This document shows positions 11,290 through 52,200 of a stretch of 64,000 nucleotides of DNA, piece by piece. The position numbers were made by a program, and so were the translations under genes. The notes beneath the pieces were generated by a model. The model was given only the letters and a program-made list of their open reading frames with translations, made no database searches and was not told the origin of the DNA. The stretch comes from Trypanosoma brucei (taxonomy: Eukaryota), in assembly GCA_000002445.1 (NCBI GenBank), contig CH464491.1, positions 2,176,001 to 2,240,000 on the forward strand, written 5' to 3'. How positions within the stretch are numbered: position 1 is the first letter of the stretch; each line of letters starts with the position of its first letter.

Positions 11290-11579
11290 ACCCTGAATAC
11301 GAAGTTATAGCACCGTACCGTGTGCAAACCACTCGCTTAAATATTAATAACTTGGTTGTCTCAAAGGTTAGGAAATACAAGGCAACCAAAAAAGGGATGG
11401 TTATGCAAAGGGGATGGCAAGTTAGTTTGCAACGCGCCAACTTTGACATAGAGGTGAGAACAGATGAATATCACCGCAGGAACATGTGGACACACGCCCA
11501 TCCTTGCCTATGTTGCAGAAATGCCCAGTAACCCGGAAGCTCGAGGGGGCAAAAAACTATCGATTGCACCGCCGAATAT

Positions 11580-12300
11580 ATAATCCGTATCGCATCTATA
11601 CCACTTCCGCAAGACAAAGGGCCACCTTCACCACAAACCTTTTAAAAAAATATACACCGTCGTCCAACCAACACAAGACAAAAGCGCCACACACCTCCCA
11701 AGCTCCGGCGTTGGTACTCAATTGCGCAAGTTCGTCGCGAAAACGGAACTGAAAGACCTGCGCTAAACTACAAACACGAACGGGTAATGGAAAAGAACCA
11801 CTGATCGACGTTTCGTGGCGGCTCCGCCTCCTCACCACCCCTCTCTGTTTTTCCTCCTCCATTCAATAGAGGCACTCCACCTCAACAAAATATACGAAAA
11901 AGAAAAAGGTGCAATCAGAGAGTTTGGTTGAAACGTGCTGCTCACGTATCACCCTCCGAAGCGAAAGCATGTCCAGTAGAACTAACATGGACAGGCATTC
12001 ACACATACTCCACTAAAAATAGAAGTCAGAGGGGGCAGTTGCCCACGCACGACGGCCACCACCCACCACAGCAGCGGTAAACAGGGAGACTCTACGAAGG
12101 GCAAATACAGTGCCACATCACCGCCCCCATGGGTGTTCCCCCCGCCCCTGACGAGACGGAAACATCATTTCTGTGACGCCGCCAACCGGCTCGCATAGAA
12201 AGGAACAGAGGAACAAGGCCCTCCTTCGAGCATTGGCACAGCGGTGACACCTGACATCAGACAACCAGAGCAACCAGGTGCGGCAACAGTCGAGCACCAC
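11580..12300 (-). promoter_or_regulatory. AC-rich tract on the plus strand, i.e. GT-rich on the minus strand, at the left edge of the strand-switch region
   Basis: The plus strand reads ccaccttcaccacaaacc...caaccaacacaagacaaaagcgccacacacctccc and ccaccacccaccacagcagcgg...caccgcccccatggg. Read on the minus strand this is GT-rich, oriented toward the minus-strand unit. Confidence 0.35.
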
Positions 12301-14684
12301 AGGAAGGTGCCTACTTTAAGCACTGCCTAATGCCAGCGAAAGTGCACACTTTTATGCTCTGTTGACGGGGTTATCTTGCCCCTCAGCGGGGATACCAAGC
12401 AGAACCCAGTTCCCGCTCCCATCATCGGAGCTTAACGAAACGGAGGGACACCTCTCAGGCGGAAACGTGTGATCCTCCCGGCAATGCTCTGCGAGGGCGC
12501 GCTGGACCTTTCCGTCACGCAGGAGGTGATCGCAAAGATTATGGGAACCGCGCCATTCACCTCCTATGGTTGCAAACACACGGGGCTTGCCCATTTTAGA
12601 GATAAAAGCACCAGGGCGTCAACACACGTTCGTTTTGGAGTGGTGTAGCTACGAGTCTGAGAACAAACACAGATTTGGGAAGCGTCACTGTTGCAATGGT
12701 GCCTGAAAGTAGTGAACAGCATGCTGTGACATATTTCCCTTTCCCCGACAACTCTAACGTGAGCACGGGAAGGTCGGAGTTACTGGGAGAAATAAAGGTC
12801 CACGGCTATTTTGAGCGGATTCGAATTGTCGCCCTGCTGCCGGAACTCGCGCGCCCCAAAGGAAGAGAGTGAGAGAAGCTGATATTAAATTTGGCAACTG
12901 GAGAAGAGTTTAATGGTCACCGGCAGTGAAGACCTAATGTGACACACAACACTGGGAGACAGGCTGTTTCACACAAACGTTACCTATTTCTGGCGTTGTG
13001 AGGTGATCGTTCAGAATGTGGTGCGGAACCGTAACAGCTACCACAGTTGGATCACCTCCAATGTAGCAGTGGGGCGCGATATGAAAAGGATAATGTACTT
13101 CAAAACTCCACAACCTTTTACTTCCTCAGAAAAGGGGGCTGGTTGGCCCAAATTACTGAAAGGAACGCGCAATTAAGCCCCGTAAATAGGGGAAAGGTGG
13201 AGTGGACGGCACTTGAAGACTCCAACGAGGGCATTACATCTGTTGTTCGCCCGTTGACATCAAATACAATCCCTAATAGGGGCGACATGCTGCCACAACA
13301 ATGGGTGCCGGAACAGAGAGTCCGTGAAAGTAAGGCAAATCAACGCAGGAGCCTAGCGAAAAGACTAGCCTTCATTAGGTTGGGAAAAAATGTTTTGAAC
13401 CCTAGCGATGCCGGCCACATCAACGTGGTGTCAGGGTCCAGTACCCCGTATCATCGGGGGAAGCCAAGAGCTAGCAGCGTTCCTCTCATGGGGAACACTG
13501 CTGTGCTCCGGCTACGGCATCATACAGCACAGGGATCAGCAGCGTCTTGCTGGGACACCGTTTTTCATTTGTCGGTCCCTGGGCACGTGGCTAGCGTGCC
13601 ATCAGCAGTATCATCCGCACTAAGATGCTGCTGTCCGGTGATGATGTTTCGAATGATGTATTTTTAGGGTGTCGAGGGGGAATGCTGCCAAATCATCCGT
13701 CACTGAAGGGCGAAACTGGATTTGACCGAGGGTGAGTCCACCGCCTGCTCGTCATCTATCATCGCTCAGGCAAGAAGTGAGTGCACGGTGACGAAAAAAT
13801 GATAGACACAAGTTGTATGTAGATACGTATACGTAGCATTCTACAAAGAATCCAACAATTCCACCAACGAATGTTGCCATCACTGAATACTGTCCGTTTA
13901 AGCCCATTTTCAACGCGGTTACAATAAAGAGTCCCTCGGAGAGGCGTTTGTTGTACTAGAGAAAGGGGGGGATGAAACTTCTAACATAAAGTTAGCCTCC
14001 CTACGTAAAACTGGCAGGGCTTTGATGTCCAAACGGAGATTCCTGTTGTCTCACCGTAGATCCACAATCAGGCGCCTCGTTGAGGTAGAGAAGCTGAGCA
14101 TGCACGCCCACTGGACCAGAATTGAGTCGAGTGGGAAAGGCTACAGCAGCATTCTCCCGCATGTAGCGTAGCAGATGCACTGCCAAACAAATATCATAGG
14201 ATGTCCACAGGTGCGTGCAAGTGCGCCGTTAGGAACATCAACCACATCAAAATGCACAGCAATGCCGGTGTCAAAGTGAGCCCGCATCTAGCCCAGGCAG
14301 CGCCAAGGAAAATACCGATGGGTTTACGAAGCCGAAGCATATTTTATTTGGCAGCACGTTAGCCCAGGGGAAGTGACCTTCCGTTTCCTCAGCCGTGCCA
14401 AGAATTTTCGCCTCGGAGTAAGTCAGTTCCATCTTCTTTCCCGCTCGCCCATTAGGGCTGGTCGTGGCTTTAAGGTGGAAGATGCATCTGTTCTCATTAT
14501 TAAGACTCTGTCTGAGTGGAGGCACGTGGCTCTAGCACTACTAGACACGAAATTGTTTGCACAGCAGTGCGTTCTGTAAGATTCAACAGCCAAGCAGTGA
14601 GTTCCATTTTCCTTCCTTGTGGAAAGAGGGGTTCATTATGGAATGTCCGGCCCATGTCATTGAGACATATTCTTCCGGACGCCT

Positions 14685-26205: not shown

Positions 26206-27777
26206 ATGATGAAGGGCAAACGCCTGAGCAAACGCCTCAGACGTAAGGAGGAACAAGAAGAGATAATCGAAGACCTCGACCTCGACGTGGAGGACTACGA
26301 GATTGAGGAGGATGACGTCGTCCACAATCGACGTAGTAAAGTGAAGGACAAGGGTGACGGAGTGAATGGTGTGCTCCCGGTGGACGCTCACAAGCTGGAA
26401 GGCTTTGACGATGACGATGAGGAAAAGGGTGCTCATCTAGAGGAAGAGAGACTCGCTCTTGAAGTAAACAAGACTATGCGAAAAAATACGGTTGATTCTG
26501 ATTTTGATGTTGGTGGTATCTCCGCGGGAACGAAGCGTAAGAGGACACCCGAATTTAACGTAACCCAAAGTGTTGCACCCGTTATTGAGGCCGTGGAGCG
26601 CGACTACGCCGCATTAACTTCTTCGGAGCGGCTGTCAATTGTGCAGAAAGAGTCTCCTGAGATGATCAAGATGCTTGAGGAAATGAAGCGGTACCTTGCC
26701 GAGGTGAGGGAACTGGGCGATCCTCTTCACGAACTGCTCTTCCGGCGGCGACTGTCAAGCGCCGATCGGAGCCTCGTTCAGTTCCTGGAAACAAAGGTGC
26801 AGCTAATGCTCAGTTATTGTATGCACGTGACATTCTATTTACTTATGAAAACGGAAGGCAAAAAGATTGCCGGCCACCCAGTCATAGACAATCTGGTGGA
26901 GATACGTGTTTACCTTGAGAAGTTGTTCCATATGGAGGAGAAGCTGCAGTACTCGTTGAATCGCCTACTAAGCGGCAAGACAACAGCTGTTGCACACCTT
27001 GATACTCTACGCCCTCTTCAGTGTAATGAGCGCGTCTCCATGACAACCAACAAAGATGCAAAGAAGAGTCGCAAGCAACTTGAAGCGATGAAAGAAGCGG
27101 AAGAAATTGAGAAGGAGGAAATGGCAACAATGAACCGCATTCGCACTAAGAAGTCAGGTAGCCTTGACGAGGTAACACCTGTTGATAGCAAGGCAGCCGC
27201 TTCAGTACTGGGCTACCACGAGGATGAAGACCAGTTTTTTGCAAAGCTAGCGGCAACCGAGAGTGACGAAGATGGAGAGGAGGGCCTTTCCTTAGTTGAG
27301 CGCTTAAAGAAGCGTCAACGAGCACTCGCAAAGGGTAGCGACGACGCTGACGACGAAGGCAATCGCAACGGAAACGTGATCGTGGATGATGATGATGATG
27401 GTAGTTATGACCAAGAGGAGTGTGAAGACGAGCTTCTCAGTGAGGGTGTGAACGAAGAGGGCGAGTACGAGACGCTCTTGGAGGAGGAGCGGGATCGCCA
27501 GAAGAGAAGGGTTGCGACTCTGCAACCCAAGCGGGAGTTAATCGAACCTGCAGTGGATCGTCGCAAGACGACCAAGAAGATTGAAACGCACCGGGGGCTG
27601 ACCAAATCTCGCCCGAAGGACCGGAAAACTCCCCGGACAGCTCAACGACGCAAGTATGAGAAAGGTTTGCGCATCCATAAGACACAGACACGCACTGTTC
27701 AACCGGAGCCGGAGGGTGGCTTTGTGGGTGTGCCGCTGCTCAAGTCTCGCGTTACGCAAAGCGTTCGGTTTCAGTAG
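26206..27777 (+). CDS. SAS10/UTP3-family protein (U3 snoRNP / SSU-processome component-like)
   Basis: The N-terminus is acidic. A Sas10/Utp3/C1D-type domain is present (LVQFLETKVQLMLSYCMHVTFYLLMKTEGKKIAGHPVIDNLVEIRVYLEKL). Acidic stretches appear mid-protein. The basic C-terminus with RRKYEKGLRIHK resembles the Sas10 C-terminal domain. Confidence 0.7.
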   Translation: MMKGKRLSKRLRRKEEQEEIIEDLDLDVEDYEIEEDDVVHNRRSKVKDKGDGVNGVLPVDAHKLEGFDDDDEEKGAHLEEERLALEVNKTMRKNTVDSDFDVGGISAGTKRKRTPEFNVTQSVAPVIEAVERDYAALTSSERLSIVQKESPEMIKMLEEMKRYLAEVRELGDPLHELLFRRRLSSADRSLVQFLETKVQLMLSYCMHVTFYLLMKTEGKKIAGHPVIDNLVEIRVYLEKLFHMEEKLQYSLNRLLSGKTTAVAHLDTLRPLQCNERVSMTTNKDAKKSRKQLEAMKEAEEIEKEEMATMNRIRTKKSGSLDEVTPVDSKAAASVLGYHEDEDQFFAKLAATESDEDGEEGLSLVERLKKRQRALAKGSDDADDEGNRNGNVIVDDDDDGSYDQEECEDELLSEGVNEEGEYETLLEEERDRQKRRVATLQPKRELIEPAVDRRKTTKKIETHRGLTKSRPKDRKTPRTAQRRKYEKGLRIHKTQTRTVQPEPEGGFVGVPLLKSRVTQSVRFQ

Positions 27778-28205: not shown

Positions 28206-29927
28206 ATGCAACCTATAGAACGTGCTGAGGAGCTACTGGCCCATGAGCGAGAGAAAATTGGTTTGTTCCGGATGCCGTTTCGCACACTTCAACTTTCATG
28301 TGCCTATTGCGTGAAGACTGTCACCAGCTACGTTGTCAAGTGTATCAAGTCATCCGCCTTTATGTTTGTGCTACCGGTTATCCTTCTGGTGGTTGGAGTT
28401 TCGACTTTTTTGATCGATTCCCCCGCTGGTCGTGCATTCAGGTTCCTAGACGCTGATGGCGATGGCTATGTGTCAGTTGCAGAGGTGGAGGGTTATTTTA
28501 GAGACAAATTGAACAGGAAACTGGGTGCTGGACGAGGGGCAAATTCTATTTTCCCTTCCGGAACTGCCCGTTTAGACAAGTCGAAGTTCACGTCATGGTG
28601 GGTGGAAGGCTACGGTGATGCTGTTAGACAGAACGCTTTCTTCAACCAAGGACCCTGGAGGGAGGCTGAGTACATGCTCGCTGATGCGCTGTGGTGGCTC
28701 GGCCTGGGAATCCTTTCTTCAATTGGTTTGGGCACAGGGATGCACTCTGGGTTGTTGTTCTTGTTTCCCTATATTTACCAGCTTTGCGCTGCAGTAGACT
28801 CATGCGGTAACACTAACTTTTGGACGTACCCGGTGAACCCCATTTACGGGCCGCGGGATCGTGTGTTTGCCTGCCTTAACCCTCAAAAGAAGGATGTCCC
28901 GACGTCGGTACTTACACGTGTGCTGATGCTGCTCCCTGCATGCTTCATTTGGGGGGTGGGCACAGCAATCGGCGAGATTCCGCCGTACCTGTTGAGTTAC
29001 ACGGCGGCCCGGCAGGGAAAGCGCAACTCGGAGTTGGATGAGGCTTCAAGGTACGACATCCTTAATAAAATGAAGGCATGGATGCTGGAGAAAATACAAC
29101 GTTATGGCTTCGTAGCAGTTCTCCTACTCGCCGCTTGGCCTAACATGGCTTTTGATCTCTGTGGTATGGCCTGCGGACAGTTTCTGATGCCCTTCTGGAC
29201 CTTCTTTGGTGCAACACTCATTGGTAAGGCATTTTGCAAGATTACACTGCAGGCTGTTTTCTTTGTTCATCTATTCTCCGGTGACAACGTGGAGCGCTTG
29301 ATCCATCGTGTAGGTGACGTCATAGCAGCTGTTGTTGTTATCCCCTCCTCAGTTTATTCGGGTGGGACTCAGGGCCTTGTCAAAAAGGCCGTAGAGGCTG
29401 TTGTGCGCGCCCGCCAAAGTATCGCCCTAAGGGCACGCGGTGAAGCAACTGTCGGCGAGGGAATGCAGTCTGCATCCCTCTTAGCGACTATCTTCGGTTG
29501 GGTAGTCGTTGCAGCAATCGCTTTTTTCGCTAAATCCGTCGTGGAAACGTTTGCTCAGAACGAGCAACAACAATACGACAAGATTGTACTAGAATATATT
29601 GGGAAGGCATTGGCACGAGGTCGGTCGAAAAAGAGCGTCACCGACGAAGAATTGCTTCAACTAATTGAGGAGTCGCAACGCTTATGCGTGGAACCAGAGC
29701 ACCTGATGAGTTTTAACCATGAGACGCTCGTAACCTATGTTTGCGTGGTTGTCGCTGGTTTCGTGATGGTTCACTATTCCGCAGTTGCCGGTCTCTCGCT
29801 CCTATTCCACATGTTTGTGTGTATGGTACATAACAACGAGTCTCTCCACCCAGTGACACTGTGGTTGCTGCGACTGTTGTTTGCGTCAGCGGCCCTTTAC
29901 ACGTTGTGTGGCCTGGAAACGCTGTAG
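28206..29927 (+). CDS. VMP1: Vacuole membrane protein 1 (VMP1/EPG-3 family; DedA-superfamily ER scramblase-like)
   Basis: Strong matches to metazoan VMP1. [26 protein letters not shown] matches [39 protein letters not shown] matches WGIGTAIGELPPY, and [17 protein letters not shown] matches [17 protein letters not shown]. Multiple TM helices are present. Confidence 0.88.
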   Translation: [573 protein letters not shown]

Positions 29928-30609: not shown

Positions 30610-31218
30610 ATGGATTTCCAGGGCTTACTACAACAAGAGGCATCCACGCGTGGACTCACAATGGTTCCGCTTTCTAGTGTGGTTGCAATGCCGTCGTCAC
30701 GGAAGGTGGCCTGTTGCGGTGGGTTTGTAGAGAAGGTTGTCGCGGAGTCAGAGCGGGACTGCACGGTTCTTCTTAGAGACGCGACGGGCGGCGTACACTG
30801 TGCCATTCACGGTGCGGTTTCCGACCGTTACCCCGATGTTCTCGCGACTGGTGCGGTCCTCCTTCTCCAAGACGTTACTGCGTTGATTGTTCCATCTTTG
30901 TTACCACCGATCATTGTGGTTTGCCTCGAGCATCTGGTGGCACTACTTCTTCCAGAGGGACCTCCGTTAAGCAATGCTGAATACACACTGGATTCGACGG
31001 CTCCGGGTGAAGAGTCACCAACCTTGGGGCACTTTACCAGCACTAATGACGTTGTGCAAACACCTGGTCGTTTAAGTGGTGCTGCAGAGGGAGCGTCACC
31101 GCAGGTCGCGCCCCCAAACATATCTGGTCTACCAACCAAAGTCGAGGAGGCAGCAGACGTTGTTTCCGTTGACCATGCAAGTGATGATGATAGCCTACAA
31201 CTTGCCGATGATTTATAA
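30610..31218 (+). CDS. Hypothetical protein with a possible HROB/MCM8IP-type OB-fold (DUF4539-like)
   Basis: The segment KVACCGGFVEKVVAESERDCTVLLRDATGGVHCAIHGAVSDRYPDVLATGAVLLLQDVTALIVPS follows the DUF4539 pattern as I recall it (...VLLKDPTGEM.GT.H..L....L.PGSVLLL.QVGVF.PS). ATG at 30610 verified. An antisense ORF overlaps. Confidence 0.5.
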   Translation: MDFQGLLQQEASTRGLTMVPLSSVVAMPSSRKVACCGGFVEKVVAESERDCTVLLRDATGGVHCAIHGAVSDRYPDVLATGAVLLLQDVTALIVPSLLPPIIVVCLEHLVALLLPEGPPLSNAEYTLDSTAPGEESPTLGHFTSTNDVVQTPGRLSGAAEGASPQVAPPNISGLPTKVEEAADVVSVDHASDDDSLQLADDL

Positions 31219-43304: not shown

Positions 43305-44676
43305 AATGGGTATCGTTATGAGCACGGCATGATTTGTTTCGACTTTGTTGTACATGCACTTGGATATCCACGTGAATATGTATGTTCGTAATGGAGACAA
43401 GCAGAGGAGAATCAGGCAACGGCGGGAAGAAGGTGTTGTATTATTGCTGCGACTCGGGAAACGAGGTAAGAAGGGGCTGGAGGTGAAGGCGAGGTGAAGA
43501 GGGAAAGTGATGGAGGAGTTAGCGTGGAAGCTGGAATTGTCGCGCCATGTGGTGCATTAGAGTGAAGGAGGGTGGCCGCTTGTAAGGGACTGGAGAGATA
43601 CGGAACATGAACACTGTGAGTAGAATAGAGATATTGTGGGAATCATGAATGAGGAGTGTGCATACGAGTTGGCGTGTGTGATTAGGGGTTTGTCCTTATT
43701 ATAAAGAGGAGGGGCCGGTGCTGCAATCACCATTCAGGGATCTTCTTGCATCCTACTGAAAATACAGAGCGGATTTGTTAACGAAGTTTTGCGTTCAAGC
43801 CATTTAAGTTAGATCCCTCACCGTACGCCCTGTAGTCATAGGGAAAGTCGAGCAGATTGCAGCGGAAGATGTTTTATTGAGCACATTCCTTCGTTTGCTT
43901 TCACTCAAGCACTGATGGCTGTGGGAGCGAGGGGGATTAAGAACATGCCGCACGCGGGGGGGGGGACTGTTTTTTTTTTTTCACACCAAATGTCGGTCAC
44001 GTTCCGAAACGGATGGACCACCTTTCAGTTTTGTGTTTGGTTTTGGCACACCGGGCGTTGGTTTGGATCTGCATTATGGTAATGTACTGAGTGCTACCAA
44101 ATGCGCCTTGTGTCCTGCTGTCTTCTCATTTATGTCGTTTGCTGCTTCGTTTAAGTTTTTTTTTGTTAACGAATGCATACTTGCGAGCCCGCCTCCCTTT
44201 TGTACAAGCATGTCCTTCGACCCCAGCTTGACGCGGTACTAATAGGCTTTCCTTATCTGACTCTTTCTGTCCTATTGAGACATTTTCAGTCGTCCTGCTT
44301 CAAATGTGACGTGCCCGTACGTTACTCGTAGATATGACCCCCTTCCCCTTTTCATATTGCCAACTTAAAAGTTTTCGGGATAGAAAGAGACTGTGGAGAA
44401 TGGTACTGTTGCGGGATGGGGTCAGTTCTTCTGTACGTGGGGCCTTCACATCAACTGTGTAGTTTCAATGCACACGACTGCTGTTGCAAAACTTGGACCA
44501 GAATTGCCACTGTTATCTTTGTTGCTTTATCACGGTTTCTGTCTCACTATTTCCACTTCTCTTTCGCTCCCCCTCTTCTCGTTTTTTAGTCGGTTGTGTT
44601 GTCTTTCTCAGCTTCAGGGGGAGAAAGGAGAACGGTAGCATCAACCGCCACCTTGGGTGTGCGGACCTTTTCAGTT

Positions 44677-47600
44677 ATGAACAATTATCATATTTACGAC
44701 GAAATTGGAAAGGGCCGCCACAGTCGTGTCTATAAGGGGCGACAGAGAAAGTCGATAGAGTACTATGCGATATCGTCCATAGAGAAATCGCAGCGGCAGC
44801 ATGTGCTCACAAACGTAAAATTCCTTCGGTCCTCAAATCACCCCCGTATCATCAAGTTTCACAACTGGTACGAAACAAACAATCACCTGTGGGTTATTAC
44901 CGAACTTTGCACAGGGGGAGACATGCGGCAGGTGTTACATCCAGAAAGTCGCCTGTCAGAGGCAGCTGTCCGCTTGTATGGTGGGGACATTGCGGAGGGT
45001 CTCATGTACATCCACTCACGTGGAGTTGTGTACCGTGATTTAAAGCCGTCTAATGTCCTTATGGACTCCACCATGGCAATGCGGTTCTATGATTTCGGAC
45101 TTTCGTGTAACTTTCCCGTAAACTGTGGAGGTGGCACGATAGGGACTGCGATGTACATGGCCCCGGAACTCTTCATGAAGGAGGGCGTGCCGTCCATTGC
45201 ATCCGACTTGTGGTCTTTTGGATGCGTGCTGCTGGAGATGAGAACTGGAAAACCCCCGTTTGATGCCGATAACTTGGAAGAACTAATTACACAAATTCTC
45301 ACGGAACCATATCATCCCCACGAGGAGCTTTCTGATGAGCTGAATGAGCTACTCGGGAAGTTGCTAGTGAAGAACCCTCTAGAACGGGCAACGTGGGAAG
45401 ATGTTGTATTGAGCCCTTTTTGGCAGGGTCGACTGCATATGCCTGCCGCCCCTCACCCACCCCAACCTGCTTTTGAGAGTTTAAAACAGAAACGGCTCGC
45501 TTCTGATGGGGGAAAGGGTGACTTTGTGATGACACTAGAGGAAGCCAAGAAGGCGGTAGAATGGACTGTAGAGGTTGCGAAGCGCAACTTTATTCTCACG
45601 CAACCCGACTCTGATGGATCCGCGCTGATATGTCTGGGTGTGTACGATCGCATTGACACAAGAGACCTCACTGGAGAAGGTGAGGGTGTTCGCGACCCTA
45701 CGTCAGGTTCACTGATAGGGGATGGAAATTCGTGTGCCTCCCCCTCGTCTTGTGTAGCCCGGGTGGGCTGTGACAGCAACGCGGGGCGGCAAGGTGACGG
45801 CGCAGCACAACGGGAAGGCGATCACAACAGGGAGATGGTGAGCGATATTGGTACAGCCGTTGGTGGTAACGCCGCAAAAAATAGCAACGTGAAACAGTTG
45901 GTAGGCGGAGGTAAATTCAGTACTGCTCTTATCGATAGCCTGTTGAGCCATGTATCAGACGCGCACGTTAGGCCGCTGGTTATGAATAATCACATCGAGC
46001 GGTTTGTTGAACAAAAGTATGATGCCAAAGCTCTAGGCTTCGAGCCGCTGACGAAGAGTCAGTTGAAAGCTTACGATGAAGAACAAAAGGCTCGCTTTGT
46101 GACGAAAGTGTACCAGAGACTATCGTCATCCTCTTTGTCTTGCGAAGACAAGCTGAATGTACTCTGTTACTTTGAATCTATATGCTCGGAAAGTTCTACC
46201 GCCAATTTTGTTGTGAGCAGCTCGATCATGACGTTGTGTCTCAATATGGCCGGCCATCGCAAAGCTTCTTCTAGCTTCCGTGCCACGGCAGCGTCCATCA
46301 TGGGCATTCTTGTCCGGCATGCCACATTTATACACCCGGATCTCGCCAAGGTTAATATCCTTGCTTCAATAGTGAAAATGTACGCTGAGGAGGAGAGTTC
46401 TCGAGTACGGCGTAAGTTGGTTGCATGCTACGGCGAGTTTCTCATCTATATAGCAGTGCAGCAAGAGCGGGAGCGTGCCGTGTGGGGCGTTGACGTTCCC
46501 GCCACCTTCAATCTATACAGGAGCCTTTTGAACGACCCGGACGATGTGCAGAAGCACTACGCCATCAAAACCATCGAAAATCTGGCATCGGTGGGTAACC
46601 GCCAAATCGCACTTGACGCCTTCGTGAATGCGGAAACGATTTCCCTGTTGCTCTCTATACACGCGTTACCTCCAACGCCAACTTGTGGTGAATATATGCG
46701 AGCTGCCGCAGCGTGCACGGCTCTGAAACTTGCGATGCTCCGGGAGGAACTCATACCTGCTGTGCTGGAGTCCCCATACCTAAAGCTTGAAGCGTATGGT
46801 GGTGTACTTGCTGCACCTAGTCCAAAATTGGCACAAGCGTTGTTGACGTTTGTAAACATGACGTTAGTTAAGGGGATGGTGGGGTTACGGCACGCAAACA
46901 TTACAAAGCTTGGGAAACCAGATGCAACAAGCCCTTTCGCCTCTTCGCGGCTTACGGGAGACAAGGCGAAGGGGGTGCTGACCGCACTTAGTGGGGTCGC
47001 TGAGGCAGTTGTGCGCGGGCTTCGTAACGGCAGTGAACACGCTACAACAGCGATGAAGGGAAAAACGTTGGTGTTGTTTATTCTCTTAGGATGCATGGAC
47101 GAGCAGCTACTGGTAAGGTTCTTCACTTCATCCCGGTGTGTTGCGTACGCCGATGGTATAGCGAAGGACAAGGACAGCTACGTGCAACGTTGCACACAGG
47201 GCTTTGCTGTGTACCTGAGTTATTTCTTCGGTTCACAGTTGGAAGGATTGACTCACGGGGCACCGTCCTTCATGATGAACAACGTCCCCAGTGCTCTGTG
47301 TAACCTATTAGGTACTAGGCACTTGTCCTCTATGTTGCAGCTAAATGATAAAGTCTTTTCCAGTATTGGGAAGTGTCTTGTGATGGTGTCCTCGTCGTCA
47401 CGCTATGCTGCTGCTGGAACGAATCTCCATGAATTGGTAGAGCTACTAGCGCAGAATCGCGAGTTAGTGTTGCGCCACCGTCTTGTTATTTCGAGTGATA
47501 TTTTTCCACCATATTTGAGCATGCTGGCCGAATCTGAGAGTGAGCGCCGTTTCCTATCGTTGCGAATCCTTAGAGCGTTGATTGTCCCTTTTGGCTCAGA

Positions 47601-48438
47601 GTCATCTCGTCAGAATGAGGAAGCACAGAAAGAGGGTGCGATGTTGGACCGTGTGATGCAGGTGGTAGCTGGTATGCTGGGTGATTTGCTGAAGGAGGTT
47701 GAGCCCATCCCTGTTCATGGTATCGGATTGTTGGCAACGTGCGGCGAGAGGCGACCCAAGACGCTTGCCAACCTTGCGACTGTGGAGCTCATAGGCGAAC
47801 TGGTTCGGTACATGATGCGATCGAGGCAGAGCGGTGTTTCCAGTCCACTACAACTGGTCATGCTAGCACTACAGACGGAGCGCGGTGGCGTTCTGATGGA
47901 TTACCTTGCAGAGCAGAACTTTCCTGTGGAGGTGCTGCTGAACATTTTGGTGATGGCTGTGGAGAAGGAGGTGGATAATCTGCTGGAACCGTGCTGTGAA
48001 CTCTTTGAACATTTCCTAAAGCAGGCGGTAGCTAATCCCAACGCTGCTGCATTACGCCAGTCAGTTATGTCCGTCGCACCACGGGCCCTGGAGACGCTGT
48101 GGCTCCCTCTGTGCACTTCTCCTGTTGGTACCACTGCAAAGAGTGCCGCGGCGTGTGTGTTGTATTTTACGCAGCTTTCTCCAGAAGTGGGGCAGGAATT
48201 GCTCTCTGATGGTAACGTCCAATACATACGTGAGGTTTTGGACAAGTGTCGAAGTCCTGGAGCGGTTGTGTGTGTTATACGTACCCTACGTCTCATTCTT
48301 GAACGAGGTACGAAGCACGACGCGCAAAAGCTCATGCCCTGGCTGCTTGGCTCACTGGAGGCTGCTGAGCAAGACCAAAAATGCGGTGGCATTGTTGCTT
48401 TGGAAATTAGGGGTATTAAAGAACTTTTACGTCCCTAG
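44677..48438 (+). CDS. ULK4: ULK4 orthologue: N-terminal kinase-like domain followed by about 950 aa of ARM/HEAT-like repeats
   Basis: The N-terminus matches human ULK4. YDEIGKGRHSRVYKGRQRKSIEYYAI matches [26 protein letters not shown], and FHNWYETNNHLWVITELCTGG matches [21 protein letters not shown]. The overall length is similar and the C-terminus is a helical repeat region. The beta3 Lys is absent (YAIS) but YRDLKPSN and DFG are retained. The track start at 44596 is GTG; the first ATG is at 44677. Confidence 0.88.
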   Translation: MNNYHIYDEIGKGRHSRVYKGRQRKSIEYYAISSIEKSQRQHVLTNVKFLRSSNHPRIIKFHNWYETNNHLWVITELCTGGDMRQVLHPESRLSEAAVRLYGGDIAEGLMYIHSRGVVYRDLKPSNVLMDSTMAMRFYDFGLSCNFPVNCGGGTIGTAMYMAPELFMKEGVPSIASDLWSFGCVLLEMRTGKPPFDADNLEELITQILTEPYHPHEELSDELNELLGKLLVKNPLERATWEDVVLSPFWQGRLHMPAAPHPPQPAFESLKQKRLASDGGKGDFVMTLEEAKKAVEWTVEVAKRNFILTQPDSDGSALICLGVYDRIDTRDLTGEGEGVRDPTSGSLIGDGNSCASPSSCVARVGCDSNAGRQGDGAAQREGDHNREMVSDIGTAVGGNAAKNSNVKQLVGGGKFSTALIDSLLSHVSDAHVRPLVMNNHIERFVEQKYDAKALGFEPLTKSQLKAYDEEQKARFVTKVYQRLSSSSLSCEDKLNVLCYFESICSESSTANFVVSSSIMTLCLNMAGHRKASSSFRATAASIMGILVRHATFIHPDLAKVNILASIVKMYAEEESSRVRRKLVACYGEFLIYIAVQQERERAVWGVDVPATFNLYRSLLNDPDDVQKHYAIKTIENLASVGNRQIALDAFVNAETISLLLSIHALPPTPTCGEYMRAAAACTALKLAMLREELIPAVLESPYLKLEAYGGVLAAPSPKLAQALLTFVNMTLVKGMVGLRHANITKLGKPDATSPFASSRLTGDKAKGVLTALSGVAEAVVRGLRNGSEHATTAMKGKTLVLFILLGCMDEQLLVRFFTSSRCVAYADGIAKDKDSYVQRCTQGFAVYLSYFFGSQLEGLTHGAPSFMMNNVPSALCNLLGTRHLSSMLQLNDKVFSSIGKCLVMVSSSSRYAAAGTNLHELVELLAQNRELVLRHRLVISSDIFPPYLSMLAESESERRFLSLRILRALIVPFGSESSRQNEEAQKEGAMLDRVMQVVAGMLGDLLKEVEPIPVHGIGLLATCGERRPKTLANLATVELIGELVRYMMRSRQSGVSSPLQLVMLALQTERGGVLMDYLAEQNFPVEVLLNILVMAVEKEVDNLLEPCCELFEHFLKQAVANPNAAALRQSVMSVAPRALETLWLPLCTSPVGTTAKSAAACVLYFTQLSPEVGQELLSDGNVQYIREVLDKCRSPGAVVCVIRTLRLILERGTKHDAQKLMPWLLGSLEAAEQDQKCGGIVALEIRGIKELLRP

Positions 48439-49206
48439 ACGCGTTACACGTGTTGCTGGGTGCGAGAGGATGATTGGTAGTGGGGGCGAGTGTATCTGGC
48501 AGCACATAGTGCAGTATTACCTCACTCTCTTTCCGGAGTTGCTTACTCTGGAATACATACGCGGGCCCTGGTAGGGTGTAATTTTTTTCGTAGCCCTTCG
48601 CAATACATTTTACTGTTTTCCTACCTACCGAGGAACATGGTTTGGAGAGAGACTGGTTCCTTTGATCATCTGCACGGAGGGAGGGGGTGAGTAGAAGCTA
48701 GTGTGCTTCTCATCTGGAAAAGTTTGGGTGCGTACGTCGCTGGCTACCTAAGCCTAGCGGATGCCAAAAGATAAAGAGCCCCACAATAGGGTGCCTCATT
48801 CATTGGGTTGTGGTTCCTTCTGCACACAGCCGTGAAACTGATTTTTTCTTTTCCACAGGACTCTCTCCGTTTTTCTTTTCCTATTGACAGTACACTTTGC
48901 GTTAGTGCGTCTTCTCACGTGCTTTCCCCCCGTTCCCTTTGTCTACCCACCAGCACTCTCTTCCCCTCACTAATGTTTGTGATATGTGTTTGTTTATCTT
49001 AAACACAGCGTTTCTCGTCGCCGTCGTTGTTACTGAACCTGTTGTTTCTCTGTAGTGGTTCTCTTTTCCCGTTTTTTCTTTACTTCTTCTGTTATCTTTT
49101 GGGTGCAGAACCACCTTTATTGTGGGACCGTTATACTTAGAGGGGGACATTTGTACCCAAGCACTGACACACGCAAAGCTTCCCATCGGTTAACTTTAGC
49201 TTGCCG

Positions 49207-52200
49207 ATGCTTCAACACTTTCTCCGTCCTGAGGTGTTGGGAACCACCGGGAAGGACGAAGAAAATGGAACGAAGGACCACCAACCCGGCCAGCAAAGGC
49301 CGACGACTTCCAGGCTTGACTCACAGTCGCTAACAGCCACCGACACTGTAAGTGAGAGACCCAAGACAGCGGAACCACTGGACCTTGTTTCAATTAGTGC
49401 CACCTACAAGGAGACGGCTGTTCTCTTTCCTGATGCCCACCAGGCGGCATTCGAACCAAAGGTGCAAGTGCCTTTTGAGTTCCAGCGGGGGCGTATCCCA
49501 CGTGAGATTGAAATAGAGCGCCGCCGCCGACTATACGAATCGAAAGATGTAAGCCGCCTTGTTCAGGTTGCAGGGTTAACGCTGAAACTTTTAGCCCACA
49601 AAAGTAGCCAGGAGCTACCCCTGCAGGTATTCGACGATACGTCGTACGATAGTAGAATCCCAGCCGAGTGGATGGAAATTGCAGCGCAGAATGAGAACCC
49701 CGCTGGTCGCTACCTTCCCGCCGAAGGAATATACGAATTCATGAACTCCGATTTCCGCATGCGGCCCTGCCGTGTTATCGGTTGGGACGTTGCCAGGAAT
49801 GAGGTGAAGTTACTCTGGGGCGCCAAACCTGTACCGGACGAAACGCCCGTTGTTGTGCCACGTTTCCACGTGCGCCTACTGGCGGAGGACCCCGTTGTGT
49901 ATGTGGAACGCCTCGTGAATGCCCAAAAGCAGCGTGTGAAGGCTATGGCTTGGATTCGCTACCGTTTGTGCTGTGACGCGATGCCTACGGATGGTCTACC
50001 CGGGCTAGATTCCAATCTCAGTGATCGGCTTCTACGTCTTGGCACTGGAATTCCAAACTTAAACAAAGCTGTTTTCCCTGATGTCGATGAGCGTGCCCAG
50101 CGCCTCATAGCCGAGTTAACACTGGAATGGCAGCGCAGTCACAATCGTATCCTCCTACAGGATCTGATGCAGCGTGACGAGTCAACATTGCGTATGGTGG
50201 CTAATACAACACAAATGAGCCTGCAGGAGTTGGTGCGAGGACCAAATGTAGAGATCCGACGGACTATCAAGTCAGACCCAAGTTCTGTAATCCCCATTGG
50301 TGACTTTGACTTCGCAGAAAGAGAAAGGTCCTTTACTTTTTCAACCTATTACACTCAACCAGAAGTGGTGACAGCGCTGACCGGGGTCCGAAGCGAGTGT
50401 ATGAAGGTTTTGGAGGGGAGTTTGTTTAACCTTCCGAAGGCCCGCCAGATGCAGCTGTCAGAGTTTCAAAAGCTGCAGAGGGACCACATGGCAGCAGTTG
50501 AAAAATATCTTAAAGGAGAATGGACGGAAAACATATGTAACGTGATTAGGAACAGCTTTGTTTCCGCGGGAAAGGGGTGGCTGAACGTGCACGAGTCAAA
50601 GCAGGAAATATATGAGATATCGAAGTTGAAGAAGTTTTTTACGACTGTGAAGTTCATGATGGAAGACACGTTGTTTGACCTCGTTTACACTTCGTTGCAG
50701 GATTTTACTGTCTTTTTTGAGGAGGTATCAGAGTTTACAGTTAATGTGATAGACATGAACAACGTGGAGAACAAGTGGCCTGGAAGTGATGCCGATGACT
50801 GTGTGGAGAAGCAACCGCTGTTTACCATTAGGCTTGCCGAACAGGACGGGTCGTTTACCTACAGCATTTCCTTCAAGGACTTTGAGGAAGCAATCATTGA
50901 CCTCTTTTTTAGTGCCATTCAGTGTACAGATGCCATTCCACAGGTGGAAAAGTTTGTGATGTCGCAGTATTTCTGGCGACGTGAAGGTGAAGGGCCGTTT
51001 TTAGACTCCGTGAAACAACAGGAAGAGCGAGTTTGTTTGTTACGAGACCGCGTGCGCCATGCGCTGCAGAATTCGATGAAACCACTGAGGGACTACCTGC
51101 AGACTTATGATGATCTGCTACCATTGGTTCGTCTCGATAAAAAGGTGTTCATCACAGAGTATGCTGCGCAGGAGCACACCATGGAGGAGATGAAGGAGGA
51201 GATTCGCGCCCATTTGAAGGCGAAGAAAGTAGTGGCACAGAAGCTCCCTGCCTTTATTACAGTGGGCAATTATGTTGTGGACTGCCAGTCATTCGGCCAG
51301 ATTATGGCTAGCAAGGAGCATGAACTCGCGAAGCTTGTGATGAATCTCATATGTAAGATTGCCAAGACCAAGACATCGTACATCCGCGAGGAGTTCACCA
51401 AAATTGTGCGAGTAGTGGAGAAACAACCCCAGACCCCTGAGAAGCTGTACGAGCTGAAAGCTATAATTGTCAACACACCTGAGCGCATCTCCGAACTCTC
51501 TGCTGAAATCGAGGAGATGCGGCAGTACTATAATGTGCTTGATGGTTTTCAGTATGAGCTTAGTGACGAGGAATCGCGGCAGAAGTGGGAGGCCATCAGT
51601 TGGCCACGACAGCTGACACTGCGCATACAAGAAACCAACAAGCAGCTAGAGAAAGTGGAGGAAGAACTCCATGCCCGTCTCCAGAAAGAAGCCGAAGAGT
51701 TCAGCAAGAAGGTGGATGCTCTGCAACGTGTTGTGGCGACATTCTCCAAGTATACCGACGCTACAGAGGCAGAGAAGGTTGCGGCAGAGGTGAAGGTGAA
51801 CAGTATTGAGATCCGTAAGTGCATTGAACAGGCCCGCTCGATTAACAGTGATCAGCGCCTCTTTGGCGATAAGCTCACGGACTACCGTAGTGTGTTTGAG
51901 CTAGAAAAGGAGTTTAAGCCGTACAGTGATTTGTGGCTAACCACTTACCAATGGCAAGACTGTTATCGCCGCTGGCACGCTGACCCATTTGATTCTCTGG
52001 ACCATGAAGAAATTGATACAGTGGTGACAAACGCCTTTAAGACGATGACACAATTGTCCAAGACGTTCAAGGATAAGAATGCAACGCTAAAGATCGTGTC
52101 GGAGATTCGGGGTAAGGTGGAAGCGTTTAAAAAATGGGTCCCGATTGTAACCTCTCTGCGCCAACCTGGCATGAAGGAGCGCCACTGGAAGGGCCTTTCA

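What the first reader, a model, noticed from the sequence alone, without database searches (positions are those of the whole stretch)
28206..29927. VMP1 orthologue carrying an inserted canonical EF-hand Ca-binding loop
The protein is clearly VMP1 from several near-identical blocks. Between the first hydrophobic segment and the conserved LGLGILSS block it has an insertion of about 90 residues not present in metazoan VMP1. The insertion contains [14 protein letters not shown], which satisfies the 12-residue EF-hand loop consensus (D1, D3, D5, G6, hydrophobic 8, E12). VMP1 is linked to ER Ca handling (SERCA regulation) and lipid scrambling. A built-in Ca-binding loop would be an unusual lineage-specific regulatory feature. 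Only one loop is evident, whereas EF-hands normally pair.
Basis: seen in the sequence. Interest (0 to 1): 0.5.

Follow-up and report, generated by a model that had tools for sequence, protein, structure and literature searches.

The report
Trypanosome VMP1 with built-in EF-hand
The Trypanosoma brucei version of the ER lipid scramblase VMP1 carries a small, conserved calcium-binding (EF-hand) domain in a loop that probably faces the ER lumen; databases flag the motif, but I found no study of it, and it ties VMP1 physically to calcium.

Summary
ORF 28206-29927 (+) encodes a 573-aa T. brucei protein, almost certainly Tb927.11.8060. It is a VMP1 orthologue: its VTT domain scores above the Pfam cut-off and it is 38-42% identical to named VMP1s.

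The loop between TM1 and the LGLGILSS block is 92 aa, against 19 aa in a crustacean VMP1, a net insertion of about 73 aa rather than 90. It starts with [13 protein letters not shown], which matches PROSITE PS00018. That pattern arises in 0.05% of shuffles of the protein and occurs nowhere else in the window.

- **Conservation:** the loop is conserved in 47 of 58 strict matches among long homologues (D1 in 57 of 58) and absent from all 62 ordinary VMP1s examined.
- **Structure:** AlphaFold2 predicts helix-loop-helix at pLDDT 94-97. A degenerate second hand bridges to it by a short beta-strand pair, so the "missing partner" exists.

Charge bias, TMEM41B topology and lumenal TurboID labelling place the domain in the ER lumen, but this is inferred. 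Calcium binding and any regulatory role are untested.

UniProt and TriTrypDB already flag the EF-hand automatically; no paper I could search discusses it. I rate it a new variant of a known kind, of moderate interest.

The parts
28206..29927 (+). Complete ORF of 573 aa plus stop: T. brucei VMP1 orthologue, inferred to be Tb927.11.8060
   Evidence: ORF listed. It is 99% identical to the T. b. equiperdum 'SNARE associated Golgi protein' and 38-42% identical over the core to named VMP1s. The VTT domain is above the Pfam cut-off. The ULK4 kinase (Tb927.11.8150) and the inner-arm dynein (Tb927.11.8160) lie downstream in the window.
28353..28412 (+). TM1 (aa 50-69), the first membrane-spanning helix
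   Evidence: Kyte-Doolittle peak of 2.74. AlphaFold2 helix at 50-69. The N-terminal flank has net charge +1.7 and the C-terminal flank -2.4, with this direction of bias in 57 of 58 homologues.
28416..28649 (+). Inserted EF-hand-pair-like domain (aa 71-148) between TM1 and TM2; predicted to face the ER lumen
   Evidence: Present in all 58 long homologues and absent from ordinary VMP1s. A profile of the domain retrieves only EF-hand proteins, with E-values down to 3.5e-14. Foldseek returns calmodulin lobes, CaBP1 and the ATP-Mg/Pi carrier regulatory domain, with rmsd 2.2-3.3 A over 59-70 aligned columns.
28422..28505 (+). Canonical EF-hand (aa 73-100): helix 73-81, loop 82-93, helix 91-100
   Evidence: AlphaFold2 gives H73-81, E88-90 and H91-100 at pLDDT 94-97. 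Pfam EF-hand_6, _1, _5 and _7 hit aa 75-99.
28449..28484 (+). 12-residue calcium-coordinating loop [12 protein letters not shown] (D1, D3, D5, G6, V8, S9, E12)
   Evidence: Matches PS00018. Column conservation among 58 homologues: D1 in 57, D/N3 in 54, D/N5 in 54, G6 in 52, V/I/L8 in 56, and position 12 as E in 45 and D in 11.
28539..28607 (+). Degenerate second hand (aa 112-134): strand 122-124 and helix 125-134, with conserved F116, L123, F128, W131 and W132; no calcium ligands
   Evidence: AlphaFold2 places strand 122-124 opposite strand 88-90, at pLDDT 97 for aa 121-130. Conservation is F128 in 54 of 58, W131 in 55 and W132 in 50. Loop position 1 is F/L and position 12 is K/Q/E/A.
28650..28805 (+). 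Helical hairpin aa 149-200 (WREAEY...[26 protein letters not shown]), the most conserved VMP1 block; probably re-entrant loop 1 of the DedA domain
   Evidence: Invariant residues are W164, L167, G168, S171, S172, G174, G176, G178, H180, G182, F185 and P188. AlphaFold2 gives H149-173 and H179-200. Assigning it to re-entrant loop 1 is my inference from Okawa et al..
28935..29231 (+). VTT / SNARE_assoc domain (aa 244-342), including the invariant D317 in PNMAFDLCG
   Evidence: Pfam PF09335, E = 1.1e-10. D317 is invariant. It corresponds to mouse D272 in NPLFDLA, which is required for ER calcium release.
29625..29924 (+). C-terminal extension (aa 474-573) with three predicted TM helices; it replaces the Lys-rich tail of other VMP1s
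   Evidence: The crustacean VMP1 ends opposite about aa 473. Predicted helices are 505-520, 525-541 and 549-572, at pLDDT 65-81 over aa 491-570 and 58 for the last three residues. Most long homologues and Papus share the tail.

Best explanation
The gene encodes the T. brucei orthologue of the ER scramblase VMP1. In kinetoplastids this protein has acquired a compact EF-hand-pair domain of about 75 aa, inserted in the loop between TM1 and the first conserved helical hairpin.

The domain has one canonical calcium site (DxDxDG...E) and one degenerate partner hand. The partner only supplies the beta-bridge and the hydrophobic core. The domain most likely projects into the lumen of the ER and nuclear envelope, directly against the membrane. 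It starts 3 residues after TM1 and runs straight into TM2.

Proposed mechanism (inferred): calcium occupancy of the single site stiffens or re-orients the TM1-TM2 connection. This would couple ER-lumenal calcium to VMP1 activity, meaning lipid scrambling and/or VMP1's effect on ER calcium release and SERCA. The closest working analogies are the lumenal EF-hands of SEPN1 and STIM.

What is shown: orthology, the insertion, loop conservation, and the predicted EF-hand fold. What is inferred: lumenal orientation. What is untested: calcium binding, affinity and any regulatory effect.
For: **Orthology**
- The VTT domain is above the Pfam cut-off.
- Hits named VMP1 share 38-42% identity over the core.
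- There are 41 invariant columns, including the LGLG...GMHSG block and D317. D317 equals mouse D272, which is essential for VMP1-dependent ER calcium release.

**EF-hand**
- The PS00018 match arises by chance in only 0.05% of shuffles.
- It is present at the aligned position in 47 of 58 long homologues and in 0 of 62 ordinary VMP1s.
- Every ligand position is at least 90% conserved.
- 35 of 41 domain sequences hit Pfam EF-hand_6.
- A profile of the domain finds only EF-hand proteins, down to E = 3.5e-14 in 5.8 billion sequences.

**Fold**
- AlphaFold2 full-length model: pLDDT 85.4 overall and 94-97 on aa 71-100. Helix-loop-helix plus a strand pair 88-90/122-124.
- Foldseek hits are all EF-hand lobes.

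**Clade restriction**
- EF-bearing VMP1s form one clade.
- Only 14 clusters among 1.84 billion representatives match across TM1, the EF-hand and TM2.

**Lumenal side**
- The charge bias across TM1 favours it in 57 of 58 homologues.
- The equivalent segment of TMEM41B (S79) is lumenal by cysteine accessibility.
- Liu et al. place the same loop (E67) on the lumen side in their putative topology.
- Tb927.11.8060 localises to the ER and nuclear envelope and is strongly labelled by lumenal BiP- and BiPN-TurboID in both life stages.

**Link to calcium**
- VMP1 controls SERCA and ER calcium release in animals.
Against: - No calcium-binding measurement exists.
- The T. brucei protein scores just below every Pfam EF-hand cut-off (21-24.4 bits against 25).
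- A DxDxDG loop with Glu at position 12 usually binds calcium at micromolar affinity. It could therefore be permanently saturated in the lumen and act as a structural site rather than a sensor.
- The loop has degenerated in Phytomonas and a few environmental lineages while the rest of the domain is kept. The domain therefore has some calcium-independent role.
- The topology is not measured. TurboID labelling does not say which loop is lumenal.
- The identification with Tb927.11.8060 rests on synteny and annotation, not on a sequence match.
- The isolated-domain model is only moderately confident (pLDDT 65.7).
Confidence: 0.55

Rival explanations
1. The domain is a structural or constitutive module. 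It is a folded lumenal spacer or protein-interaction surface. Its calcium site is either always occupied at ER calcium levels or unimportant, so it does not sense calcium changes.
For: Loops of the DxDxDG...E type are typically high-affinity (general EF-hand knowledge), and ER calcium is about 0.1-1 mM. Phytomonas (DIEHRGQITEEDL, DTEHHGQITGENL), P0034 and P0023 have lost ligand residues but keep F128, W131, W132 and the WRE.EY motif.
Against: All five ligand or geometry positions are at least 90% conserved across very divergent kinetoplastids. This argues for selection on metal binding itself. Single canonical hands paired with a non-binding hand (STIM, SEPN1) do have affinities of 100-600 uM and do act as lumenal sensors. 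A constitutive structural calcium ion is still calcium binding, so this rival overlaps the main explanation.
Confidence: 0.25
2. The EF-hand faces the cytosol and makes VMP1 responsive to cytosolic calcium transients. This would be a calcium-activated scramblase in the functional sense of TMEM16.
For: Canonical high-affinity loops are typical of cytosolic sensors. No direct topology data exist for any VMP1, and the published VMP1 topologies are putative.
Against: The positive-inside bias puts the N-terminus in the cytosol and the loop outside in 57 of 58 homologues. TMEM41B has the equivalent segment in the lumen. The protein is labelled by lumenal TurboID baits. The Lys-rich C-terminus of animal VMP1 binds COPI, which fixes the overall orientation as cytosolic termini.
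Confidence: 0.12
3. The motif is a chance resemblance or a decayed relic with no metal binding.
For: The single-sequence Pfam scores are below the gathering thresholds. PS00018 is known to give false positives.
Against: The chance rate is 0.05% per shuffle. The motif is conserved at the same aligned position in 47 of 58 homologues, and 4 more fail only at pattern position 13. The flanking helices and the F(-4) residue are also conserved (57 of 58). Profile-level hits to EF-hand proteins reach E = 1e-14. The predicted EF-hand fold is confident.
Confidence: 0.03

Closest known systems
VMP1 / EPG-3 / TMEM49 (animals, Dictyostelium, oomycetes, alveolates), a member of the DedA superfamily
   Same: The VTT/DedA core and the LGLG...GTGMHSG hairpin. 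The GEIPPY and PNxxFDLCG motifs, including the Asp equivalent to mouse D272. ER and nuclear-envelope localisation. Identity of 38-42% over the core.
   Different: A net insertion of about 73 aa forming an EF-hand domain in the TM1-TM2 loop. A 100-aa C-terminal extension with three predicted TM helices in place of the Lys-rich COPI-binding tail.
Selenoprotein N (SEPN1)
   Same: An ER membrane protein with a single canonical EF-hand immediately on the lumenal side of a TM helix. It senses lumenal calcium at about 100-300 uM and acts on SERCA. This is the closest working analogy.
   Different: There is no sequence relationship outside the EF-hand. SEPN1 is a single-pass type II reductase. Here the EF-hand is an internal loop of a multi-pass scramblase.
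STIM1/2 EF-SAM
   Same: A lumenal canonical EF-hand paired with a non-binding 'hidden' hand. The C. elegans STIM EF-SAM structure is among the structural matches (6pw7, rmsd 2.3 A over 66 columns).
   Different: No SAM domain and no cytosolic coiled-coil or Orai-activating region. By published survey, STIM is restricted to the animal lineage while kinetoplastids have ORAI-like channels.
Transporters with EF-hand regulatory domains, such as the ATP-Mg/Pi carrier SCaMC/APC
   Same: A membrane transporter fused to an EF-hand module. The APC regulatory domain (4zcv) is a top structural match.
   Different: APC has an N-terminal domain with four EF-hands facing the intermembrane space, on a mitochondrial carrier fold. 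Here there is one active hand, inserted inside the protein.
TMEM16 / anoctamin calcium-activated scramblases
   Same: The concept of calcium control over a lipid scramblase.
   Different: The fold is unrelated. In TMEM16 the calcium site is formed by acidic residues of TM helices and senses cytosolic calcium. There is no EF-hand.

Membership tests
VMP1 (DedA superfamily) | VTT/SNARE_assoc (PF09335) domain above the curated threshold | tested here: met
   42.5 bits against a cut-off of 33.9, at aa 244-342.
VMP1 (DedA superfamily) | Closest relatives are VMP1s rather than TMEM41 or TVP38 paralogues, with the VMP1-specific conserved blocks present | tested here: met
   Hits named VMP1 (Plasmopara, Vitrella, JGI, KEGG K21248) reach E = 1e-62 to 1e-72. 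There are 41 invariant columns, including W164...P188, GEIPPY and FDLCG.
VMP1 (DedA superfamily) | ER membrane localisation | not testable with these tools
   Taken from the literature: Tb927.11.8060 is placed at the nuclear envelope and ER by TrypTag and at the ER by LOPIT. The gene identity is inferred from synteny.
VMP1 (DedA superfamily) | Phospholipid scramblase activity and a role in autophagy or ER contact sites | not testable with these tools
   No functional paper on a trypanosomatid VMP1 was found.
Canonical EF-hand | 12-residue loop with ligands at positions 1, 3, 5 and 12, Gly at 6 and a hydrophobic residue at 8 (PROSITE PS00018) | tested here: met
   [13 protein letters not shown] matches. 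Only 24 of 50,000 shuffles match.
Canonical EF-hand | Pfam EF-hand model at or above the gathering score | tested here: inconclusive
   The T. brucei protein scores 21.0 bits in full and 24.4 bits as the isolated domain, against a cut-off of 25. However, 35 of 41 family members match at E <= 0.01, and the domain profile hits EF-hand proteins at E = 1e-14.
Canonical EF-hand | Helix-loop-helix geometry, paired with a second hand through a short antiparallel beta-bridge | tested here: met
   This is predicted structure only. The model shows H73-81, E88-90 and H91-100 paired with E122-124 and H125-134. It superposes on calmodulin and CaBP1 lobes. The second hand lacks ligands.
Canonical EF-hand | Binds calcium | not testable with these tools
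   Needs ITC, a 45Ca overlay or a fluorescence assay.
STIM-type lumenal calcium sensor | EF-hand located in the ER lumen | tested here: inconclusive
   Charge bias, TMEM41B topology and lumenal TurboID labelling all point to the lumen. None of them maps this loop directly.
STIM-type lumenal calcium sensor | SAM domain packed on the EF-hand pair, plus a cytosolic effector region | tested here: not met
   No SAM or other extra domain appears in Pfam. The EF domain is flanked directly by TM helices.

The most novel reading that the evidence does not exclude
Kinetoplastid VMP1 is a self-contained sensor of ER-lumenal calcium. Store content, read by the single low-affinity EF-hand, would gate VMP1's scramblase and/or calcium-release activity. 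This would give a lineage that has ORAI-like channels but no STIM its own store-sensing device. The natural fusion would also be independent evolutionary evidence that VMP1's primary job is tied to ER calcium, which is currently debated in mammals.
Probability: 0.2. Interest if true: 0.75.

Novelty: new variant of a known kind. Interest (0 to 1): 0.5.

Why it matters
Whether mammalian VMP1 acts mainly as a lipid scramblase, as a SERCA regulator or as an ER calcium-release factor is unsettled. A lineage in which VMP1 has kept a canonical calcium-binding domain welded into its first lumenal loop is a "Rosetta-stone" hint that calcium and VMP1 function are directly coupled.

It also gives a tractable test system. 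T. brucei genetics can be combined with point mutants of one loop. In addition, the insertion and the C-terminal extension are parasite-specific features of a protein that is essential in mice and is probably important in trypanosomes too.

Tried and rejected
1. I searched 5.8 billion proteins with a profile of the insertion domain, hoping to map its taxonomic spread. It returned only generic multi-EF-hand proteins. This is useful as proof of EF-hand homology but not for distribution.
2. The look-up of encoding contigs on two environmental homologues gave no taxon. It showed only intron-less, same-strand neighbouring genes.
3. The listing of cluster members named the outgroups (amoebozoans, opisthokonts and others) but no euglenid or diplonemid VMP1. 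The insertion can therefore be dated only relative to Papus.
4. The afdb50 fold library was unavailable.
5. Foldseek of the full model against the PDB finds no solved relative of the membrane core. The PDB sequence search likewise finds only calmodulin-type hits.
6. Literature searches for VMP1 with Trypanosoma, VMP1 with EF-hand, and the gene ID found no study of this protein.
7. I considered and rejected a gene-model artefact. The ORF is continuous, the N-terminus is conserved, and the insertion is in frame in every homologue.
8. I considered and rejected a second functional calcium site. Loop 2 has F/L at position 1 and K/Q/A at position 12.
9. The tRNA and Rfam scans of the window were empty.
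Full report
**What is at the coordinates**

The window carries a single uninterrupted ORF at 28206..29927 on the + strand, 573 aa from an ATG start. Its best database match is 99% identical over the full length to a Trypanosoma brucei equiperdum protein named "SNARE associated Golgi protein".

Downstream in the window lie a ULK4-type kinase (44596-48438) and a 4154-aa dynein heavy chain (49201-61665). Published T. brucei gene IDs for these two are Tb927.11.8150 and Tb927.11.8160. The window is therefore T. brucei chromosome 11.

The ORF sits nine gene-number steps upstream, which fits Tb927.11.8060. That gene is annotated "SNARE associated Golgi protein, putative", with 9 TM domains and computed GO:0005509 calcium ion binding. 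This identification rests on synteny and annotation, not on a sequence match.

**Is it VMP1?**

Pfam finds the VTT/SNARE_assoc domain above its curated cut-off, at 42.5 against 33.9 bits. Beyond the kinetoplastids, the next-best relatives are proteins of about 400 aa named VMP1 in oomycetes and alveolates, in JGI annotation and in KEGG (K21248). They share 38-42% identity over about 53% of the query.

An alignment of 73 sequences has 41 invariant columns. These include the [17 protein letters not shown] block, GEIPPY and PNxxFDLCG. The invariant D317 sits in the motif NPLFDLA. That motif is encoded by the guide RNA used to make the mouse D272N allele, which abolishes VMP1-dependent ER calcium release. 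Orthology is well supported.

**The insertion**

Against a crustacean VMP1 (P0095), the segment between TM1 and the WW-LGLG block is 92 aa in T. brucei and 19 aa in the animal.

All 58 long homologues (530-660 aa) share the insertion, and ordinary VMP1s do not. An exhaustive HMMER scan of 1.84 billion representative proteins with aa 45-200 found only 14 clusters that match across TM1, the EF-hand and TM2. Of the remaining 136 listed hits, nearly all are ordinary VMP1s matching only the TM2 hairpin; two are giant multi-EF-hand proteins matching only the EF-hand stretch.

**The EF-hand motif**

[13 protein letters not shown] (aa 82-94) matches PROSITE PS00018. Only 24 of 50,000 shuffles of this protein give any match. 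It is also the only match in the six-frame translation of the entire 64-kb window.

The pattern is found at the aligned position in 47 of 58 long homologues and in none of 62 ordinary VMP1s. Four more fail only at pattern position 13. Conservation among the 58 homologues is as follows:

| Position | Conserved residues | Count out of 58 |
|---|---|---|
| F at -4 | F | 57 |
| Loop 1 | D | 57 |
| Loop 3 | D or N | 54 |
| Loop 5 | D or N | 54 |
| Loop 6 | G | 52 |
| Loop 8 | V, I or L | 56 |
| Loop 9 | T, S or D | 55 |
| Loop 12 | E (45) or D (11) | 56 |

Single-sequence Pfam scores are just below threshold, at 21.0 and 24.4 bits against 25. However, 35 of 41 domain sequences hit EF-hand_6 at E <= 0.01. 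A profile of the domain also retrieves exclusively bona fide EF-hand proteins, with E-values from 3.5e-14 to 1e-7 in a 5.8-billion-sequence database. Chance can be excluded.

**Structure, and the "missing" partner hand**

AlphaFold2 on the 73-sequence alignment gives mean pLDDT 85.4 and pTM 0.81. Around the motif it predicts:
- helix 73-81, strand 88-90 and helix 91-100, at pLDDT 94-97;
- a 20-residue coil;
- strand 122-124 and helix 125-134, at pLDDT 97 for aa 121-130;
- TM2 from residue 149.

The isolated domain folds the same way but with lower confidence, at pLDDT 65.7.

Foldseek of the domain against the PDB returns only EF-hand lobes: calmodulin, CaBP1 and the ATP-Mg/Pi carrier regulatory domain. 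They align over 59-70 columns at rmsd 2.2-3.3 A, with probability about 1.0 but modest E-values of 3e-3 to 2e-2. In the full-length model, the only high-probability PDB matches are again EF-hand pairs, including the C. elegans STIM EF-SAM domain.

The insertion is therefore a two-hand lobe. The second hand keeps the structural residues: F116, L123, F128 (54 of 58), W131 (55) and W132 (50). It has F/L at loop position 1 and K/Q/E/A at position 12, so it cannot bind calcium.

**Which side of the membrane**

This is an inference, supported by four lines of evidence:
1. The 20 residues before TM1 carry net charge +1.7 and the 20 after it -2.4, with this direction of bias in 57 of 58 homologues. 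By the positive-inside rule the N-terminus is cytosolic and the domain is not.
2. In the paralogue TMEM41B, cysteine-accessibility mapping put the N-terminus in the cytosol. It put the segment between the N-terminal TM helix and re-entrant loop 1 (S79) in the lumen. The EF domain occupies the equivalent place.
3. Liu et al. draw E67, which lies in the same loop of mouse VMP1, on the lumenal side. They also show that the C-terminal di-lysine motif binds COPI, which makes that end cytosolic.
4. Tb927.11.8060 localises to the nuclear envelope and ER by TrypTag and to the ER by LOPIT. It is significantly enriched by the lumenal baits BiP-TurboID and BiPN-TurboID in both procyclic and bloodstream forms, with differences of 6.2-9.9.

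None of these maps the loop itself.

**Distribution and history**

In a neighbour-joining tree of the conserved core, the EF-bearing VMP1s form a single clade. The named trypanosomatids are nested inside a broad set of unnamed environmental sequences. The named genera are Trypanosoma, Leishmania, Leptomonas, Angomonas, Strigomonas, Novymonas, Porcisia and Phytomonas.

The sister sequence is from Papus ankaliazontas, a prokinetoplastid. It lacks the insertion but has a similar hydrophobic C-terminal tail. On this thin evidence, the EF domain was gained within Kinetoplastea after the tail. A divergent EF-bearing sequence without the tail (P0250) shows that the order of events is not settled. I could not identify euglenid or diplonemid orthologues.

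The loop has degenerated in Phytomonas and a few other lineages while the rest of the domain persists.

**Mechanism**

What is shown is a VMP1 core with an inserted lobe of one active and one pseudo EF-hand, under purifying selection on the metal ligands. It sits flush against the membrane between TM1 and the most conserved hairpin of the protein.

What I infer is that it binds lumenal calcium. Occupancy would then set the geometry of the TM1-TM2 connection and so modulate VMP1's activities. In animals VMP1 affects SERCA and ER calcium release.

The nearest working precedent is SEPN1. This ER membrane protein has a single lumenal EF-hand next to its TM helix, senses 100-300 uM calcium and feeds back on SERCA2. 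STIM is a second precedent, with a canonical hand paired with a hidden one.

The main rival is that the site is constitutively occupied and merely structural. The cytosolic-facing alternative is less likely. A chance motif is excluded.

**Novelty**

The EF-hand is already detected automatically. UniRef names several orthologues "EF-hand domain-containing protein", and the T. brucei gene carries GO:0005509. The product name hides its VMP1 identity.

Full-text searches found no paper on VMP1 in trypanosomes, none on VMP1 with an EF-hand, and only one proteomics table mentioning the gene. A dedicated survey of ER calcium-system evolution does not mention VMP1. It notes that kinetoplastids have ORAI-like channels but that STIM arose near animals.

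I therefore rate this a new variant of a known kind, of moderate interest. It is a natural fusion that bears on the open question of how VMP1 and ER calcium are linked, and it can be tested directly in a tractable organism.

Noticed in passing
window 29625-29924 (aa 474-573): A C-terminal extension of about 100 aa with three predicted TM helices (505-520, 525-541, 549-572; pLDDT 65-81 over aa 491-570). Animal, oomycete and alveolate VMP1s lack it and end instead in a Lys-rich COPI-binding tail. Most EF-bearing homologues share it, and so does the prokinetoplastid Papus, which lacks the EF-hand.
   Followed up: partly
window 29154-29156 (D317, in PNMAFDLCG): This invariant Asp corresponds to mouse VMP1 D272 (NPLFDLA). 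The D272N mutation of that residue abolishes ER calcium release and all VMP1 function in T cells.
   Followed up: partly
homologues P0025 and P0039 (Phytomonas), P0034, P0023: The calcium-ligand positions of the loop have degenerated (for example DIEHRGQITEEDL), while the rest of the inserted domain is retained (F128, W131, W132, WRE.EY). The domain is kept even where calcium binding is probably lost.
   Followed up: partly
homologue P0250 (513 aa): A divergent sequence rich in Asn, Ile and Lys. It has the insertion and a near-canonical loop (DTNTDSLLSIHEY), but a Lys-rich tail and no C-terminal extension. Its taxon is unknown. It complicates the order in which the two lineage-specific features were gained.
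   Followed up: no
window 28803-28805 and 28872-28874 (C200, C223): Two invariant cysteines lie at the start of, and within, the beta-hairpin loop 201-234, which is on the same predicted (lumenal) side as the EF domain. A conserved disulfide is possible.
   Followed up: no
window ~11300-13050: A divergent strand-switch region. All long ORFs before 11289 are on the - strand and all from 13047 onward are on the + strand. GC skew changes sign at the same place.
   Followed up: no
window 26206-27777, 30610-31218, 44596-48438 and 49201-61665: The neighbouring genes are a Sas10/Utp3 homologue, a 202-aa protein with an HROB homologous-recombination OB-fold domain, the ULK4-type pseudokinase (FCP5, Tb927.11.8150) and the DNAH1-type inner-arm dynein heavy chain (Tb927.11.8160).
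   Followed up: partly
homologue P0049 (EukProt 'Colponema vietnamica'): This EF-bearing, kinetoplastid-type VMP1 is filed under an alveolate predator's transcriptome. It groups inside the kinetoplastid clade. From my own recollection that this species is grown on bodonid prey, it is probably prey contamination.
   Followed up: no
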